From NCBI GenBank assembly GCA_016928715.1, contig JAFGKG010000112.1:969-64968 (forward strand): a DNA stretch of 64,000 nucleotides. Reading direction: 5' to 3'. The position numbers and the translations under genes were made by a program. Source of the DNA: Chloroflexia bacterium. GTDB lineage: Bacteria > Chloroflexota > Chloroflexia > DTKN01. How positions within the stretch are numbered: position 1 is the stretch's first letter; each line of letters opens with the position of its first letter. Shown here one piece after another: positions 36,896-41,665 of this stretch. Under the pieces are notes generated by a model, which ran no database searches, was not told the origin of the DNA, and saw only the letters and a list, made by a program, of their open reading frames with translations.

Positions 36896-37991
36896 ATGTC
36901 GGAAGTGCAGGTTTTATTGGAGGAACTGCAGCCTCGCCTGGAAATGATCCGGAGGCATCTTTGACCTGCCGGGCAAGGAAGAAGAGTTCGCCCAACTGGA
37001 ACAGCGTTCGCTGGGCCCAGATTTCTGGCAAGAGCCCCAGCAGGCCCAGGAGGATATGCGCCGCCTGACCCGCTTGCGGGAACAGCTTGACCATTGGCAC
37101 TCCCTGGAGCGACAGCGCGCCGAACTCCAAGAGTTGCTCGAACTGGCCGAACTGGACGAGGAGCAGTCCATGGTGGCCGAGATAGAAAGGGAGGCGCGGC
37201 AATTGCTGCGGGCGGTGGAGCGGTTGGAGTTCCGGCTCATGATGGGCGGTCGCTACGACGACCACGATGCCCTGCTTTCCATCCACGCCGGTGCCGGTGG
37301 CACCGAAGCGCAGGACTGGACCGAGATGTTGCTGCGTATGTACCTGCGTTGGGCCGAGCAGCGTGATTTCAAGGCCGAGATCATCGAGATGTTGCATGGG
37401 GAGGAAGCGGGCATCAAGACGGTGACGATCGAGTTGGTTGGGGAGTACGCCTATGGCTATGCCCGGGCCGAGGCGGGCGTACACCGCCTGGTGCGGCTTT
37501 CCCCCTTTGACGCCGCCCATCGTCGGCACACCTCCTTTGCCCTGGTGGAGGTCGTTCCCGTGCTGGACGACGAGATCGAGATCGAAATCTTGGCCGAGGA
37601 TATACGCATTGATGTATTTCGGGCCCAGGGGCATGGGGGGCAGGGGGTCAATACCACCGACAGCGCCGTGCGCATTACCCATCTGCCGACAGGAATAGTG
37701 GCCGTCTGCCAGAATGAACGCTCGCAACTGCGCAACAAAGAGATCGCCATGCGGGTATTACGCTCGCGCTTGTACGAGTTGGAACTGCACAAGCAGGAGG
37801 AGGAACTGGACCGGGTCAAAGGAGAGCACATCTCGGCCGGCTGGGGCAATCAAATTCGTTCCTACGTGCTGCATCCCTACAGTATGGTCAAGGACCTGCG
37901 CACCGGCTATGAAACCAGCAATACCACGGCCGTGCTGGACGGCGACCTGGATGACTTTGTCGAGGCCTATTTGCGCTGGCGTATGCAGTAG
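36896..37991 (+). CDS. prfB: peptide chain release factor 2 (requires programmed +1 frameshift at 36959..36965)
   Basis: Frame 0 reads MSEVQVLLEELQPRLEMIRRHL then TGA (36962..36964). The +1 frame continues DLPGKEEEFAQLEQRS...MRRLTRLREQ and joins ORF 37056..37991. SPF (RLSPFD) and GGQ (GHGGQGVN) motifs are present. Confidence 0.92.
36951..36965 (+). promoter_or_regulatory. prfB: prfB programmed +1 frameshift site (internal SD-like GGAGG + CTT TGA C)
   Basis: The sequence is ggaggcat CTT TGA C. This is the same architecture as the canonical bacterial RF2 autoregulatory site. Confidence 0.9.
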
Positions 37992-38036: not shown

Positions 38037-39095
38037 TTACTCGTCAATGACCTTTTCGTCGATGAGGGTCTGTTCCACATAGCCGCCGTGGGGGTTGAAG
38101 CAGAAATACTGCGAGAGCAGTTCGAACTCGAGGTCCACTTCGGCCCGGCCGGCGCGATTTTTCTCCACGCTGAACACGACCCAACTTTTCCAGCGCTCCG
38201 CTTCCTGCATGTTGAAGGTGATGTGCTTTTTGGCCACAATTTTCCATTTTTGGTTAATGATCAGGGCAATGTCGCACTCATAGTCCAGGGCCGAGCTGCC
38301 ACGCAGATGGCGCAGGTGCAGGCGCTTGGCCTTGAGCCCCTCGCGGTCAGAGGCCACAATGGCGATGACGACCGTGCCCAGGTCCAGGGCAATGTTCTTG
38401 AGCCCTTCCACGATGATGGTGACCTTTTCGGCCTCGTTCTCGGTGCGATAGGGCAGGGCGATCTTTTGCAAATAGTCCACCACGACCAGGACGGGAACGC
38501 CAGGATTCTCCTCCTGGAATTTTTGCACCATGGCCTCGATCACCGGCAGGGTGGTCTTTTGGGGGCTGGCCTTGAGCAGATAAAGTTTGTGCAGGTAGAG
38601 TTGGACCTTTTCAAAGACCTGGTTGGCGTTGGGCATCGACTTGAGCACGTCAAAGAAACCCGCCTTGGGATGCTGTCGGCGGTAATCGAGGATGGTCCGA
38701 TGCAGGTCTCGCAGACGGATGCCCCGCTGCATGCCGTCCTTGGTCGGATCGATGCTCTCCATACAGATGAGCCGGCTGAGCATGTGCTCTTCGTCATGCT
38801 CATAAGAGAGGTACAGGACAACGGCCGGGGTATAGGCGGCGATGTTGCGTCCAACTTGGAGGCACCAGATAGTTTTGCCCATGCCCTGGGCTCCGCCCAG
38901 CAGGACGAGCTCGCCCTGCTTGAAGCCTCCGCTGATAATGTCGTCCAATTCGCGAAAACCGGTGGGCAGGGGGGTATAGGCCTCCAATTCGCCACTGGCT
39001 ACCTTGCGGTCGGTTTCGACCATAATTTCCCGCAGCGAGCGGGGCAAGGGTACGTCTTTTAAGAGGTCGCCATCCAAGGGGGTGGTGTCTTTCAT
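38037..39095 (-). CDS. DnaB_C-only RecA-superfamily ATPase (DnaB-helicase C-terminal domain protein lacking the DnaB N-domain)
   Basis: 352 aa. Motifs LPTGFRELDD, Walker A GGAQGMGKT, Walker B VLVVVDYLQKI, RGSSALDYECDIALII and VEKNRAGR. The ATG (39095..39093) overlaps the upstream stop by 4 nt (ATGA). GC is lower than the flanks by eye. Confidence 0.8.
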   Translation of the reverse strand: MKDTTPLDGDLLKDVPLPRSLREIMVETDRKVASGELEAYTPLPTGFRELDDIISGGFKQGELVLLGGAQGMGKTIWCLQVGRNIAAYTPAVVLYLSYEHDEEHMLSRLICMESIDPTKDGMQRGIRLRDLHRTILDYRRQHPKAGFFDVLKSMPNANQVFEKVQLYLHKLYLLKASPQKTTLPVIEAMVQKFQEENPGVPVLVVVDYLQKIALPYRTENEAEKVTIIVEGLKNIALDLGTVVIAIVASDREGLKAKRLHLRHLRGSSALDYECDIALIINQKWKIVAKKHITFNMQEAERWKSWVVFSVEKNRAGRAEVDLEFELLSQYFCFNPHGGYVEQTLIDEKVIDE

Positions 39096-41590
39096 TCCAC
39101 GCTCTCCTCCACCTGGGTTGTTTTGCGCTGCAGTCTCTGCAGTACATAGCCCCAGAGTGGCCAACGCAGTTTCTGCCAGGCCTGTTGGACCTGGACAATC
39201 TCCTTGACCGATGTATGGGTCTGTCCAAAGCGCTCCTTCACGTACTGGGTGGTGATCAGGGCGATGGCGGGGCGCTGTTCTGGGAGGGCATCGGCCAGTT
39301 GCCAGGCGTATTCATAGGGGGTGGACTGTCTTTGCGGACCCAGCCCGACCAGGGTGGCCCAGCGGCACATGCGCTCATAGACCACCGCGACCGGGTTGAG
39401 CCGGCGCAGCCCGCGACCGGCCCACAGCAATAGGACCCCCAGACCGACCAGCACTAGGAGCAGGATCGTCATAGGTGCTATTACGCCGGGCCGGGTGAGG
39501 ATGGGCTCCGCTTCCTCGATGTCAATCTCGCCGTCCAGGGGGATGTCGATGTCCTCGAGGCGGTCCTCGGGGTCAAAGGGCTCGTCGTCCATTTCGATGT
39601 TGGGCGTGCGCGGGGGAGCATCCCCCGAGCTGGGGGGCCGTTCCCGGCGGGAGGGCAGCGAGGTATAGTCGGCCGGGGTGGGCTCAAAGCGCTGCCAGCC
39701 ATAGTTGTTAAAATAGACCTCGGTCCAGGTATGGGCGGCGGCGACGGGCACGATGTAGGCGTCGAGTTCGCTGTCGTATTCGCCGGAGGCATAGCCGCGA
39801 ACCAGCCGGGCGGCAATGCCCTGGGTCCGCAGCAGCACGGTCATTGCCGAGCCAAAATAATCGCAGTAGCCGGCCTGGCTGTCAAAGAGGAAATAGTCGA
39901 CGGCGTCGCGGCCCTCTGGGGGGGCGGTGATACTCTCGCGGTAGGTCAGTTCGGTACGCAGATAGGTCTGGATGGCTTCGGCGGCGTCATAGGGGTTGAC
40001 CAGGCCCAACTGCACCAGTCCGCCGCTGGGATAGACCGAGAGGATTTCCTGACCCCTTTTCTGGATCACGGCGACGACAGGGCCCTCGTCCGAGTCCCGC
40101 CGGATGCGCAACTCCTCCAGACCGCTGTTGTCCGGCAAGCTCTGCTCCCAGAGTAGATCGTCCGTGGGATCATCGACCATGTGGGTGGCGACGATCCTGT
40201 CGGCCAGCTCGCGGATCCGGCTGGGGATTTGTGGCAGCGCCAAGTAGCGCCGGAGGACCCAATCGGGATAGTCGAGTTCGGACCGCCGCAGCGAGGCCTT
40301 GTCCACGGTCGTGAACCAAGAACTCACCTTATAGGGGCGGTTTTCCTGGAGGGCCTGGCGGCTGCGGATGCTGACAATATCGGCAAAGCCGGCCTCTTCC
40401 ACCGGGCTGCCCAACTCGACGGTGGCCGGCAGGGTCATACTCATCGGCTCGGCGATGGCAAAGATCATGTTGCCGCCCTGCAGCAGGGGGACGATGGTAT
40501 GGTCGACGCGAACCCGCTTGAGTACGTCGGGATTGAGGATCTGGCCGGGTGGCAGCGTCCAGCTCGGTCCGTTTTCAGCCGTGTTGAGCCAGCCGCGGCC
40601 ATCGTATTGATCAAAGACAATGCCGCGCAGATATTCGTTGCGATCGGTTAGGACGAGCATGGCATAGCCCTCGGGCGTGACCCGCCCGCCGGCCAGTTCA
40701 AAGCTGGAGCTATAGGCCCCAATCCGTCCTTCGCCGATGGTGCCCACCTCGCTAAAGAGTCGCTCCCAGGTGCCCCGGACCTCCCGCCACGGTTCCAGGA
40801 ATCGATCCCAGAAGGAAGCCGTTTCGGCACTGCCAGTGCTGGTGGGCAACAGGGCGCTGCCGAGCACCAGGACGAGGCTGAGGGCGACCCCGACCCAAAA
40901 AATCCGGCCGGACATTTCGCGGGGATAGTGTACATTCTCGCGCTGCCATTCCTGTTCCTGTCGCTTCCAGAGATAATAGACCAAAAAGATCAGGCTGAGG
41001 AGGGCAAAGTATTGGAAGTAACGGGGGGAAACGTCGGGCCCGTAGACCAGGTTCAACAGCAGCACTAGTCCGGGCAGGCCAATGCTCATCCAGGGCCAGT
41101 GCGAGCGAAAGGCAAACCAGGCGCTCAAAAAGGCTACGACCCAGCAGATCAGGGCCAGGACGATGATAAAGAGGGTAATATCGTCGCCATATTCGCCTTG
41201 GAAAAAGTTGCGGCCCAGAATGATGACGCGGATGAGCAGTTCGATGGCCCGATCCCGCCAGGTGTCTAGGTTGGGATGGAGGTAGTAGACGATCTGGCTG
41301 CTGCCGGTGATGTGCACGTTCTGCAGGCCGCTGCTGAGTTCTATGATCCAGGCCAGCCCGCCGGCGAGGCCCAGGGAGTGGGCCAGCCAACGGGGGAGCC
41401 AACGCAGCCGGGCCAATACAAAGCCGGCCAGCACGCCGACTAGGGCCGTTGCGGGCAGCATGGCGCTCAGGGCCAGGCGCAGGGAGATGACCCAGCGCCC
41501 ATTCTGCAAAGAGCCCGCCACGGTCAGCAGCAGCAAGAGAATCAATAATAACGAGAGCCAGCCTTCTGGCAGTTCCCACCATTTAGGCAT
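39092..41590 (-). CDS. transglutaminase-like (TgpA-type) polytopic membrane protein
   Basis: ATG at 41590 after GGGGAGGA. The N-terminal part has about 6 or more TM helices. The transglutaminase core is QAGYCDYFGSAMTVLLR...AHTWTEVYF...WQRFEPT. A C-terminal TM segment and tail follow. Confidence 0.85.
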   Translation of the reverse strand: MPKWWELPEGWLSLLLILLLLLTVAGSLQNGRWVISLRLALSAMLPATALVGVLAGFVLARLRWLPRWLAHSLGLAGGLAWIIELSSGLQNVHITGSSQIVYYLHPNLDTWRDRAIELLIRVIILGRNFFQGEYGDDITLFIIVLALICWVVAFLSAWFAFRSHWPWMSIGLPGLVLLLNLVYGPDVSPRYFQYFALLSLIFLVYYLWKRQEQEWQRENVHYPREMSGRIFWVGVALSLVLVLGSALLPTSTGSAETASFWDRFLEPWREVRGTWERLFSEVGTIGEGRIGAYSSSFELAGGRVTPEGYAMLVLTDRNEYLRGIVFDQYDGRGWLNTAENGPSWTLPPGQILNPDVLKRVRVDHTIVPLLQGGNMIFAIAEPMSMTLPATVELGSPVEEAGFADIVSIRSRQALQENRPYKVSSWFTTVDKASLRRSELDYPDWVLRRYLALPQIPSRIRELADRIVATHMVDDPTDDLLWEQSLPDNSGLEELRIRRDSDEGPVVAVIQKRGQEILSVYPSGGLVQLGLVNPYDAAEAIQTYLRTELTYRESITAPPEGRDAVDYFLFDSQAGYCDYFGSAMTVLLRTQGIAARLVRGYASGEYDSELDAYIVPVAAAHTWTEVYFNNYGWQRFEPTPADYTSLPSRRERPPSSGDAPPRTPNIEMDDEPFDPEDRLEDIDIPLDGEIDIEEAEPILTRPGVIAPMTILLLVLVGLGVLLLWAGRGLRRLNPVAVVYERMCRWATLVGLGPQRQSTPYEYAWQLADALPEQRPAIALITTQYVKERFGQTHTSVKEIVQVQQAWQKLRWPLWGYVLQRLQRKTTQVEESVE

Positions 41591-41636
41591 GTTATATCCT
41601 CCCCAGAGGGGGTCTTGTCCGTATCTTGACCCTTCT

Positions 41637-41665
41637 ATTATACGCTTTCTGCGCCCGTTTGGCAA
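41637..41665 (-). promoter_or_regulatory. promoter of transglutaminase/DnaB_C operon (TTGCCA-17-TATAAT)
   Basis: Minus-strand hexamers at 41665..41660 and 41642..41637. Confidence 0.65.

What the first reader, a model, noticed from the sequence alone, without database searches (positions are those of the whole stretch)
38037..41665. Translationally coupled transglutaminase membrane protein and DnaB_C-only ATPase
Seen: a TgpA-like protein (N-terminal multi-TM region, Cys-His core GYCDYF/AHTWTEVY, C-terminal TM) ends with a TGA that overlaps the ATG of a 352-aa RecA-superfamily ATPase (ATGA at 39092..39095). That ATPase has all DnaB C-terminal motor motifs but lacks the DnaB N-terminal domain and linker, so it is too short to be a replicative helicase. 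A consensus promoter (41637..41665) drives the pair. The ATPase gene looks lower in GC than its neighbours. The usual TgpA partners (MoxR ATPase, DUF58) are absent. Inference: this is an unusual two-gene module pairing a membrane cysteine-protease/transglutaminase fold with a hexameric-motor-like ATPase. It could be an envelope, stress or defence function. No described system with this pairing comes to mind.
Basis: partly seen in the sequence, partly recalled or inferred. Interest (0 to 1): 0.65.

Follow-up and report, generated by a model that had tools for sequence, protein, structure and literature searches.

The report
Membrane transglutaminase coupled to DnaB-like ATPase
A membrane-anchored transglutaminase-like enzyme gene and a small ring-ATPase gene related to the motor half of the replication helicase are read as one unit in this bacterium and its close relatives, but the two gene families mostly occur apart elsewhere, so this is a lineage-specific operon and not a new widespread system.

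Summary
A TgpA-type membrane transglutaminase gene (39092..41590, 832 aa) overlaps by ATGA a 352-aa DnaB C-terminal-domain ATPase gene (38037..39095). An 11/12 sigma-70-like promoter lies upstream.

Corrections:
- The ATPase keeps the DnaB linker helix.
- The true transglutaminase start is the ATG at 41590.
- MoxR and DUF58 genes exist elsewhere in the genome.
- The lower GC matches neighbouring housekeeping genes.

The ATPase is not the replicative helicase. A full-length, intein-containing dnaB lies on another contig.

The pair, including the ATGA overlap and its ribosome-binding site, is kept in all family-level relatives examined, even where the flanks differ. In the sister clade, one genome has MoxR-DUF58-TgpA-ATPase. 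A congener has the two genes on separate contigs.

Beyond that the families are independent. The ATPase family occurs in 49 of 401 sampled Chloroflexota. There it sits beside Tad pilus genes (five families) or in an ftsH housekeeping array. More distant TgpA relatives stand alone or with MoxR-DUF58.

No defence signal was found.

Best reading (about 0.4): a lineage-specific envelope operon in which a cytoplasmic ring ATPase is co-expressed with TgpA. A physical partnership is unproven.

The parts
41637..41665 (-). Sigma-70-like promoter (TTGCCA, 17 nt spacer, TATAAT)
   Evidence: Consensus scan gives 11 of 12 matches; sequence read.
41597..41604 (-). Ribosome-binding site GGGGAGGA of the transglutaminase gene
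   Evidence: Lies 6-7 nt upstream of ATG 41590.
39092..41590 (-). TgpA-family membrane transglutaminase-like gene, 832 aa from ATG 41590 (the open frame extends to TTG 41665)
   Evidence: Pfam Transglut_core, DUF4129 and TgpA_N, all above cut-off. Orthologues at 47-63% identity.
39485..40846 (-). Predicted extracytoplasmic domain of 454 aa (residues 249-702) containing the transglutaminase core
   Evidence: Hydropathy and the positive-inside rule: K+R 42 against D+E 74, flanked by TM segments 230-248 and 703-721. This is inference.
39854..39871 (-). Catalytic Cys motif GYCDYF
   Evidence: Conserved in all relatives whose sequence covers this region (one row is interrupted by a 100-N run) and in the sister-clade protein.
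39713..39736 (-). Catalytic His motif AHTWTEVY
   Evidence: The AH.W.E core is conserved in all relatives.
39674..39688 (-). Third catalytic position, FEPTP (Glu in place of the usual Asp)
   Evidence: The alignment shows Glu conserved in this lineage and in the sister clade.
39173..39379 (-). DUF4129 domain in the predicted cytoplasmic C-terminal tail
   Evidence: Pfam 38.3 bits, cut-off 24.8. Topology inferred.
39104..39110 (-). Ribosome-binding site GGAGGAG of the ATPase gene, inside the 3' end of the transglutaminase gene
   Evidence: GGAGG is conserved at this place in 8 of 8 relatives.
39092..39095 (-). ATGA stop/start overlap (translational coupling)
   Evidence: The same 4-nt overlap is present in 8 of 8 relatives.
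38037..39095 (-). ATPase gene of 352 aa: DnaB linker helix plus C-terminal RecA-type motor domain
   Evidence: Pfam DnaB_C at 94 bits. Best sequence and fold matches are DnaB and the G40P ATPase domain.
38988..39047 (-). Linker-helix-like segment (residues 17-36)
   Evidence: Aligned to DnaB residues about 160-180. Predicted helices at 21-34 and 36-40.
38871..38894 (-). Walker A motif GAQGMGKT (residues 68-75)
   Evidence: G68, Q70, G71, G73, K74 and T75 are invariant in 64 family members.
38463..38486 (-). Walker B motif VVVDYLQK (residues 204-211)
   Evidence: D207, Y208, L209, Q210 and K211 are invariant.
38334..38348 (-). DREGL loop, aligned with the central-channel (DNA-binding) loop of DnaB
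   Evidence: R251, G253 and L254 are invariant. Aligned to 'SREVE' of Aquifex DnaB.
38271..38309 (-). HLRGSSALDYECD, the arginine-finger / H4 motif region
   Evidence: H263-R265-G266, S268-E273 and D275 are invariant. Aligned to 'DLRESGQIEQDAD' of DnaB.
38040..38096 (-). Conserved acidic C-terminal tail NPHGGYVEQTLIDEKVIDE, which has no counterpart in DnaB
   Evidence: P335, G337, V340, L344 and D346 are invariant across the family.

Best explanation
Shown:
- This is a two-gene operon with one promoter, a 4-nt stop/start overlap and an internal ribosome-binding site.
- Gene 1 encodes a TgpA-family polytopic membrane protein.
- Gene 2 encodes a soluble RecA-type ATPase built from the DnaB linker helix plus the DnaB motor domain. 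Its Walker A, Walker B, catalytic Glu and arginine finger are all invariant, so it very probably forms an ATP-hydrolysing ring.
- Gene 2 is not the replicative helicase. It is this lineage's copy of a Chloroflexota-specific family of DnaB C-terminal-domain-only ATPases.
- The pairing arose in the common ancestor of one Chloroflexia family and perhaps its sister clade, next to or within a MoxR-DUF58-TgpA operon. It has been kept there with translational coupling.

Inferred:
- The papain-fold Cys-His-Glu domain of gene 1 faces outward and its DUF4129 tail faces the cytoplasm.
- Both proteins act at the cell envelope. The transglutaminase-like domain would cross-link or cleave an extracytoplasmic protein substrate.
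- The ring ATPase would be a cytoplasmic ATP-dependent regulator or energiser of membrane-embedded envelope machines. That would include the Tad pilus, beside whose genes its relatives sit in other lineages.
- In this operon the ATPase would occupy the position that MoxR-DUF58 holds in canonical TgpA operons. It possibly docks on the cytoplasmic DUF4129 tail.
- The partnership is lineage-specific, not a universal module.
For: Anatomy:
- Gene structure and domains.
- Topology.

Not the replicative helicase:
- A genuine dnaB scores 337 bits, has its N-terminal domain and carries a mini-intein.
- The ATPase scores 89 bits against the 385-bit cut-off of the DnaB equivalog model.
- On the tree the DnaB C-terminal domain is very distant, with a branch length of about 10.

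Active ring ATPase:
- The catalytic residues are invariant in 64 members.
- The best fold matches are DnaB and G40P motor domains, with E about 3e-12.

Pair conserved:
- 8 of 8 relatives keep the ATGA overlap and GGAGG.
- The ATPase is 78-82% identical in these relatives and the transglutaminase 47-53%.
- Flanking genes differ among the relatives.
- All 9 genomes of the family have this ATPase type.
- Eight contig lengths are shared between the two hit lists.

Sister clade:
- One genome carries MoxR, DUF58, TgpA (28% identity), the ATPase and a methyltransferase on one strand.
- The two clades group together with SH-aLRT support 96.

Envelope link of the ATPase family:
- Tad genes (TadE/G, RcpC, TadZ, CpaF, Flp, prepilin peptidase) lie directly beside it in four families.
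- Tad genes lie 4-6 genes away in 9 of 13 loci of a fifth family.
- 47 of 49 genomes with the ATPase have RcpC, against 169 of 352 without it.
- The in-genome paralog is followed 3 nt later by a 950-aa membrane TPR protein, and this pair also occurs in a second genome.
- In archaea, both KaiC-family ATPases and transglutaminase-family surface peptidases are linked to type IV pilus loci (PMC4858521).
Against: - The pairing is narrow. A congener of the sister-clade genome has the two genes on different contigs.
- TgpA relatives at 28-29% identity stand alone or with MoxR-DUF58, and have no ATPase beside them.
- 43 of the 49 surveyed ATPase loci have no transglutaminase beside them.
- In the two families where the ATPase is a core gene, it sits in a housekeeping array of tilS, ftsH, M20 peptidase, the ATPase, then ppa or a HAD hydrolase.
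- No Tad gene lies within 8 kb of the pair in this lineage. In this genome the Tad genes are on other contigs.
- The RcpC association is inflated by shared ancestry, because two families supply most of the positive genomes.
- The central-channel loop R-E-G of DnaB is invariant, which fits a nucleic-acid substrate at least as well.
- No physical interaction was tested.
- The C-terminal 100 residues of the model are unreliable, with pLDDT about 30.
Confidence: 0.4

Rival explanations
1. This is an operon of convenience. The two genes are co-transcribed in this lineage only because of inherited gene order. The transglutaminase works with the unlinked MoxR and DUF58 proteins as in other bacteria. 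The ATPase has an independent job, the same job as in lineages where it sits far from any transglutaminase.
For: - Both families mostly occur apart.
- Within one genus the genes are adjacent in one genome and on separate contigs in another.
- MoxR and DUF58 genes are present elsewhere in this genome.
- A TgpA-like gene was found in all 26 genomes checked, whereas the ATPase is in only 49 of 401. TgpA therefore does not need this ATPase in general.
Against: - The 4-nt overlap and the internal ribosome-binding site are kept in 8 of 8 relatives, although the transglutaminase has diverged to about 50% identity and the flanks have been rearranged.
- The local MoxR-DUF58 pair seen in the sister clade has been lost, while the ATPase was retained.
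Confidence: 0.33
2. The ATPase is a nucleic-acid translocase. It would be a minimal DnaB-like hexameric ssDNA helicase used in repair, recombination or DNA uptake, possibly coupled to Tad pili as competence pili. Its position after the transglutaminase gene would then be irrelevant to its function.
For: - All DnaB motor motifs are invariant, including the central-channel loop R251-E252-G253 and the arginine finger.
- DnaB and G40P are the closest folds.
- Some relatives carry a faint DnaB N-terminal-domain hit.
- Neighbours in other lineages include a DnaJ/ExoX-like_C protein, a SLOG/DprA-like protein and an MrfA-type DEAD/MZB helicase.
- From general knowledge, helicases of this superfamily that lack the N-terminal domain do exist (RSF1010 RepA).
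Against: - No DNA-metabolism gene is consistently adjacent.
- The most frequent specific neighbours are membrane or surface-structure genes.
- The gamma-phosphate sensor Gln of DnaB aligns with Ala.
- The family has an extra conserved acidic tail that DnaB lacks.
Confidence: 0.2
3. The pair is an anti-phage defence or conflict system, with a membrane protease-like effector and an NTPase sensor.
For: There is only a general resemblance: an NTPase next to a papain-fold protein, and a GT4-conflict Pfam hit on the neighbouring glycosyltransferase.
Against: - Neither protein has a PADLOC hit.
- The flanks are housekeeping genes (prfB, udk, dnaX).
- The pair is inherited vertically in all genomes of the family.
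- The ATPase is highly conserved at about 80% identity, unlike fast-turnover defence genes.
Confidence: 0.03

Closest known systems
DnaB replicative helicase (and the phage SPP1 G40P ATPase domain)
   Same: - Linker helix plus RecA-type C-terminal domain.
- Walker A and B, catalytic Glu, the R-E-G channel loop and the arginine-finger motif are all present.
- These are the best sequence and fold matches.
   Different: - No N-terminal primase-binding domain.
- Scores 89 bits against the 385-bit equivalog cut-off.
- The sensor Gln is replaced by Ala.
- It has an extra conserved acidic C-terminal tail.
- A genuine DnaB is encoded elsewhere in the genome.
- It is very distant from DnaB on the tree.
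TgpA of Pseudomonas aeruginosa and MoxR-DUF58-transglutaminase operons (for example the aaa-atp, duf58, tgm genes of the bifidobacterial PFNA cluster, PMC8430577)
   Same: - Multi-TM N-terminus (TgpA_N), a Transglut_core domain with Cys and His, and a DUF4129 tail.
- The sister clade still has MoxR-DUF58-TgpA in one row.
   Different: - No MoxR or DUF58 gene lies at this locus or within 8 kb in any close relative.
- A DnaB-like ATPase is coupled to it instead.
- The third catalytic residue is Glu, not Asp.
ArlH/FlaH and other KaiC-family ATPases of archaeal type IV pilus and archaellum loci (PMC5019145, PMC4858521)
   Same: - A single-domain RecA-superfamily ATPase without a helicase N-domain.
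- Encoded beside type IV-filament (Tad) genes in several lineages.
- The archaeal loci are also linked to transglutaminase-family surface peptidases.
   Different: - The KaiC Pfam model matches only the Walker A region, residues 44-107.
- DnaB is the closest fold, not KaiC.
- The similarity to ArlH/FlaH is therefore one of role only, and no homology closer than the shared superfamily was found.
- In this genome the gene is not next to Tad genes.
RSF1010 RepA-type helicases (AAA_25)
   Same: Hexameric DnaB-superfamily motor without an N-terminal domain. The AAA_25 model hits at 46.8 bits.
   Different: The gene is chromosomal and vertically inherited, with no replicon or mobile-element context. 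The comparison with RepA itself rests on general knowledge and was not tested here.

Membership tests
DnaB replicative helicase (TIGR00665 equivalog) | N-terminal helical (primase-binding) domain | tested here: not met
   The protein is 352 aa. Pfam gives no DnaB N-terminal hit. Alignments to DnaB start at DnaB residue about 160.
DnaB replicative helicase (TIGR00665 equivalog) | Score above the curated equivalog cut-off | tested here: not met
   89.4 bits against a cut-off of 385.
DnaB replicative helicase (TIGR00665 equivalog) | It is the genome's only DnaB homologue | tested here: not met
   A full-length dnaB lies on C59 (337 bits, N-terminal domain, mini-intein). A second DnaB_C-only paralog lies on C147.
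DnaB_C domain superfamily (PF03796) | RecA-type core with Walker A and B, catalytic Glu and arginine finger | tested here: met
   94 bits against a cut-off of 27. The motifs are invariant in 64 members. Fold matches to DnaB and G40P.
DnaB_C domain superfamily (PF03796) | Hexameric ring, ATP hydrolysis, translocation on ssDNA | not testable with these tools
   This needs biochemistry. No multimer prediction was available.
TgpA-family membrane transglutaminase | TgpA_N multi-TM region plus Transglut_core plus DUF4129, each above its Pfam cut-off | tested here: met
   32.6/30, 78.9/23 and 38.3/24.8 bits. Five or more hydrophobic segments.
TgpA-family membrane transglutaminase | Cys-His-Asp catalytic triad | tested here: inconclusive
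   Cys (GYCDYF) and His (AHTW) are conserved. The third position is Glu (FEPT) in this lineage and its sister clade. Activity was not tested.
MoxR-DUF58-TgpA operon | MoxR (AAA_3) and DUF58 genes directly upstream of the transglutaminase gene | tested here: not met
   There are none at the locus or within 8 kb in 10 loci from close relatives. They are present elsewhere in the genome. The feature is met in the sister-clade genome G223.
KaiC / ArlH (FlaH) family | Full-length match to the KaiC ATPase model, with KaiC as the closest fold | tested here: not met
   PF06745 matches only residues 44-107. All top 50 fold hits are DnaB-family proteins.
Tad (type IVc) pilus locus component | Encoded within or beside a Tad gene cluster | tested here: not met
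   This holds for relatives in five families but not here. The Tad genes of this genome are on contigs C183 and C191.
Known anti-phage defence systems (PADLOC) | Match to a defence-system protein model | tested here: not met
   No hits for either protein at E <= 0.01.

The most novel reading that the evidence does not exclude
A DnaB-derived ring ATPase family is an unrecognised cytoplasmic partner of membrane-embedded envelope machines in Chloroflexota. These machines would include Tad pili in some lineages and the TgpA transglutaminase in this one. The family would play the part that KaiC-like ArlH plays in archaeal type IV filaments. In this lineage it would have replaced MoxR-DUF58 as the ATP-dependent partner of TgpA, docking on the cytoplasmic DUF4129 tail.
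Probability: 0.15. Interest if true: 0.7.

Novelty: new variant of a known kind. Interest (0 to 1): 0.38.

Why it matters
TgpA-type transglutaminases and their MoxR-DUF58 partners are widespread, and the role of the operon is still unknown. From general knowledge, TgpA is reported as essential in Pseudomonas.

This lineage may have swapped the MoxR-DUF58 pair for a different ATPase. If so, it would give a simpler two-component case for asking what the cytoplasmic ATPase does for the outward-facing enzyme.

The DnaB C-terminal-domain-only family is also of interest in its own right:
- It has thousands of members in metagenomes.
- It is routinely mis-annotated as 'replicative DNA helicase'.
- It has no assigned function.

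Knowing that it is not the helicase corrects genome annotation. Knowing that it tends to sit beside Tad pilus and membrane-protein genes gives a testable lead.

Tried and rejected
- **Defence system:** rejected. There are no PADLOC hits, the context is housekeeping, and inheritance is vertical.
- **Divergent sole replicative helicase:** rejected.
- **Horizontal origin inferred from low GC:** rejected. prfB and udk next door have the same GC, and the gene is the vertically inherited copy in all 9 family genomes.
- **Phyletic co-occurrence with DUF4129 and Transglut_core:** uninformative. Both are nearly ubiquitous in the phylum (343 of 401 genomes, and 26 of 26).
- **Second paralog's partner as a transglutaminase or C39 peptidase:** no. 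It has only TM segments and TPR repeats.
- **Cluster of about 500-aa membrane proteins beside the ATPase in three families:** no Pfam hit.
- **Structure model:** only residues 10-250 are usable, so nothing was concluded from the C-terminal part.
- **Literature searches for the pairing:** found nothing.
- **Not run:** The search of protein representatives and the metagenome scan. They would add numbers but no genomic context.

Full report
**What is in the sequence**

On the minus strand, an ORF of 857 aa (39092..41665, TTG start) is followed by an ORF that, read from the ATG at 39095, gives 352 aa (38037..39095).

- The stop of the first ORF and the start of the second share ATGA at 39092..39095. 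A GGAGGAG lies 9 nt upstream, inside the first gene.
- A promoter-like TTGCCA-17-TATAAT (11 of 12) lies at 41665..41637.
- The -35 hexamer overlaps the TTG at 41665. An ATG at 41590 is preceded by GGGGAGGA. The first protein is therefore most likely 832 aa.
- The ATPase gene has GC 0.56-0.58 and the transglutaminase gene 0.61-0.67. The adjacent prfB and udk are equally low, so the dip says nothing about origin.

**The two proteins**

Protein 1 matches Transglut_core, DUF4129 and part of TgpA_N above the Pfam cut-offs.

- Hydropathy and charge place the 454-aa acidic domain that contains the Cys/His core outside the membrane.
- The same analysis places the 111-aa DUF4129 tail in the cytoplasm (inference).
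- Cys (GYCDYF) and His (AHTW) are conserved. The third catalytic position is Glu (FEPT) in this lineage and its sister clade.

Protein 2 matches DnaB_C over residues 43-325 (94 bits).

- It reaches only 89 bits against the 385-bit cut-off of the DnaB equivalog model.
- HMMER alignments to solved DnaB structures begin at DnaB residue about 160.
- The AlphaFold model has two helices (21-34 and 36-40) before the RecA core.
- Walker A, the catalytic Glu, Walker B, the R-E-G loop and the arginine-finger block are invariant in 64 family members. The R-E-G loop aligns with the DnaB central-channel loop.
- A C-terminal acidic tail with no DnaB counterpart is also invariant.
- Foldseek finds only DnaB-family motor domains at the top: G40P, then Geobacillus, Vibrio and E. 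coli DnaB, with E about 3e-12.
- The model is unreliable beyond residue 250.

**Not the replicative helicase**

The genome holds three DnaB_C matches.

- The one on contig C59 scores 337 bits. It is a full-length DnaB with its N-terminal domain and a mini-intein at the classic site.
- The third match, on C147, is a second DnaB_C-only paralog, 48% identical to the window's protein.

**How far the pairing goes**

Within the lineage:
- Eight species-level relatives, all Chloroflexia MAGs, carry the ATPase at 78-82% identity. The transglutaminase sits directly upstream at 47-53% identity.
- All eight keep the 4-nt ATGA overlap and the GGAGG. One apparent disruption is only a 100-N gap in the record.
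- prfB and udk lie downstream in most of these relatives but not all. The GT4-methyltransferase genes lie upstream only in the two closest. The pair has therefore survived rearrangements on both sides.
- In a class-wide sample, all 9 genomes of the family have this ATPase type. Seven of them have it as their only copy.
- Eight contig lengths are shared between the ATPase and transglutaminase hit lists from metagenomes.

In the sister clade:
- On a tree, this clade groups with a second family, whose ATPases are 54-56% identical, with SH-aLRT support 96.
- One genome of that family has MoxR, DUF58, a TgpA-like protein (868 aa, 28% identity), the ATPase and a methyltransferase on one strand.
- A congener keeps ATPase-methyltransferase-...-ClpX with unrelated genes upstream. 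Its TgpA-like gene is on another contig.

Beyond these two families:
- More distant TgpA relatives (28-29% identity) stand alone or in a MoxR-DUF58-TgpA row, never with the ATPase.
- In this genome MoxR and DUF58 genes exist, with four tblastn hits each, but none is near the pair.

**The ATPase family at large**

The family is large. More than 3700 hits were found, often annotated 'replicative DNA helicase'. It is patchy: 49 of 401 sampled Chloroflexota genomes have it.

A survey of 49 loci (gene calling, clustering and Pfam) shows several recurrent contexts:
1. In two families where it is a core gene, it sits in a co-directional housekeeping array of tilS, ftsH, (M20 peptidase), the ATPase, then a J-domain protein, a HAD hydrolase or ppa.
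2. In four other families it is the immediate neighbour of a Tad pilus locus. Pfam confirmed TadE/G, RcpC/CpaB, a TadZ-like protein and CpaF. A Flp-like pilin and a prepilin-peptidase-like gene were recognised by sequence only.
3. In one of the core families, TadG/TadE-like genes lie 4-6 genes away in 9 of 13 loci.
4. In three Anaerolineae genomes it is divergent from AMMECR1, a Peptidase_C39_2-TPR protein, an epimerase and a Glycos_transf_4 gene.
5. The paralog in this genome is followed 3 nt later by a 950-aa TM-TPR protein. This pair is also seen in a second genome.

RcpC occurs in 47 of the 49 genomes with the ATPase, against 169 of the 352 without it. Two families supply most of the positives, so this is weak evidence.

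This genome has Tad genes on contigs C183 and C191, not near either ATPase copy.

A published census of archaeal type IV pili reports links of those loci to KaiC-family ATPases, MoxR/vWA pairs and transglutaminase-family surface peptidases (PMC4858521). This is an analogy, not a test.

**Interpretation**

The descriptive part is solid. This is a promoter-driven, translationally coupled operon of a TgpA-family membrane enzyme and a non-replicative DnaB-motor-like ring ATPase, conserved in one family-level lineage.

The functional part is inference. The recurrent membrane and surface-structure neighbours of the ATPase family favour an envelope role. So does the position of the ATPase behind a TgpA gene that elsewhere follows MoxR-DUF58. 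In that role the ATPase would act from the cytoplasm on a membrane machine, here TgpA.

Three observations count against an obligate partnership:
- the narrow distribution of the pairing;
- its loss within a genus;
- the near-ubiquity of TgpA-like genes whether or not the ATPase is present.

The invariant DnaB channel loop keeps a nucleic-acid-translocase role open. Defence has no support.

**Novelty and limits**

I found no paper describing the pairing. Earlier notes of this scan had seen the same pair in another genome, and the Tad link of the family. I re-derived both from my own data.

The case is a new variant of the TgpA operon theme involving an uncharacterised ATPase family. It is of moderate interest.

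Limits:
- No multimer prediction was available.
- There is no biochemistry.
- The genome is a fragmented MAG (226 contigs, 89% complete, 5% contamination).

Noticed in passing
L015 4642..6675 (genome contig C59:26641-28674): The genuine dnaB carries a mini-intein of about 150 aa at the classic site (LRDSG|CLAGD...ILHN|SIEQDAD).
   Followed up: partly
L014 6948..10874 (genome contig C147): A second DnaB_C-only paralog (356 aa, 48% identical) is followed 3 nt later by a 950-aa TM+TPR protein. It is divergent from a GT4/GT4/LPG_synthase_TM/GT2 cluster. The same pair occurs in genome G190 (L062). On the tree this paralog is sister to the Anaerolineae-type members.
   Followed up: partly
genomes of families f12 and f35: The single TgpA-like gene lies about 30-55 kb from the ATPase gene on the same contig in 13 of 14 genomes checked. 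This may be a conserved chromosomal region or a remnant of older linkage.
   Followed up: no
P0224, P0229, P0272; L090 7364..9016: Some relatives of the ATPase family, 41-43% identical to a Tad-adjacent member, are about 550 aa long and carry a faint DnaB N-terminal-domain hit. The family may therefore descend from a full-length DnaB-like protein.
   Followed up: no
L038 8719..9171 and seven other f12 loci: A 145-165-aa protein with a DnaJ domain and an ExoX-like C-terminal motif directly follows the ATPase gene in 8 of 13 loci of one family.
   Followed up: partly
genome contigs C91:12008-15702 and C168:19194-22428: Two MoxR-DUF58 pairs in this genome each have their own DUF4129 protein nearby. 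DUF4129 therefore seems to be the part that travels with MoxR-DUF58.
   Followed up: no
L058 7868..9319, L049 6972..8516, L057 11041..12573: A polytopic membrane protein of about 500 aa with no Pfam match lies directly beside the ATPase gene in three families that also have Tad genes there. This genome has a homologue on C107:23440-24942.
   Followed up: partly
window 36896..37991: prfB lies convergent to the ATPase gene, with only 45 nt between the stops.
   Followed up: no
L011 6721..6820: A 100-N run in the public record interrupts the transglutaminase gene of one relative and mimics a disruption.
   Followed up: yes
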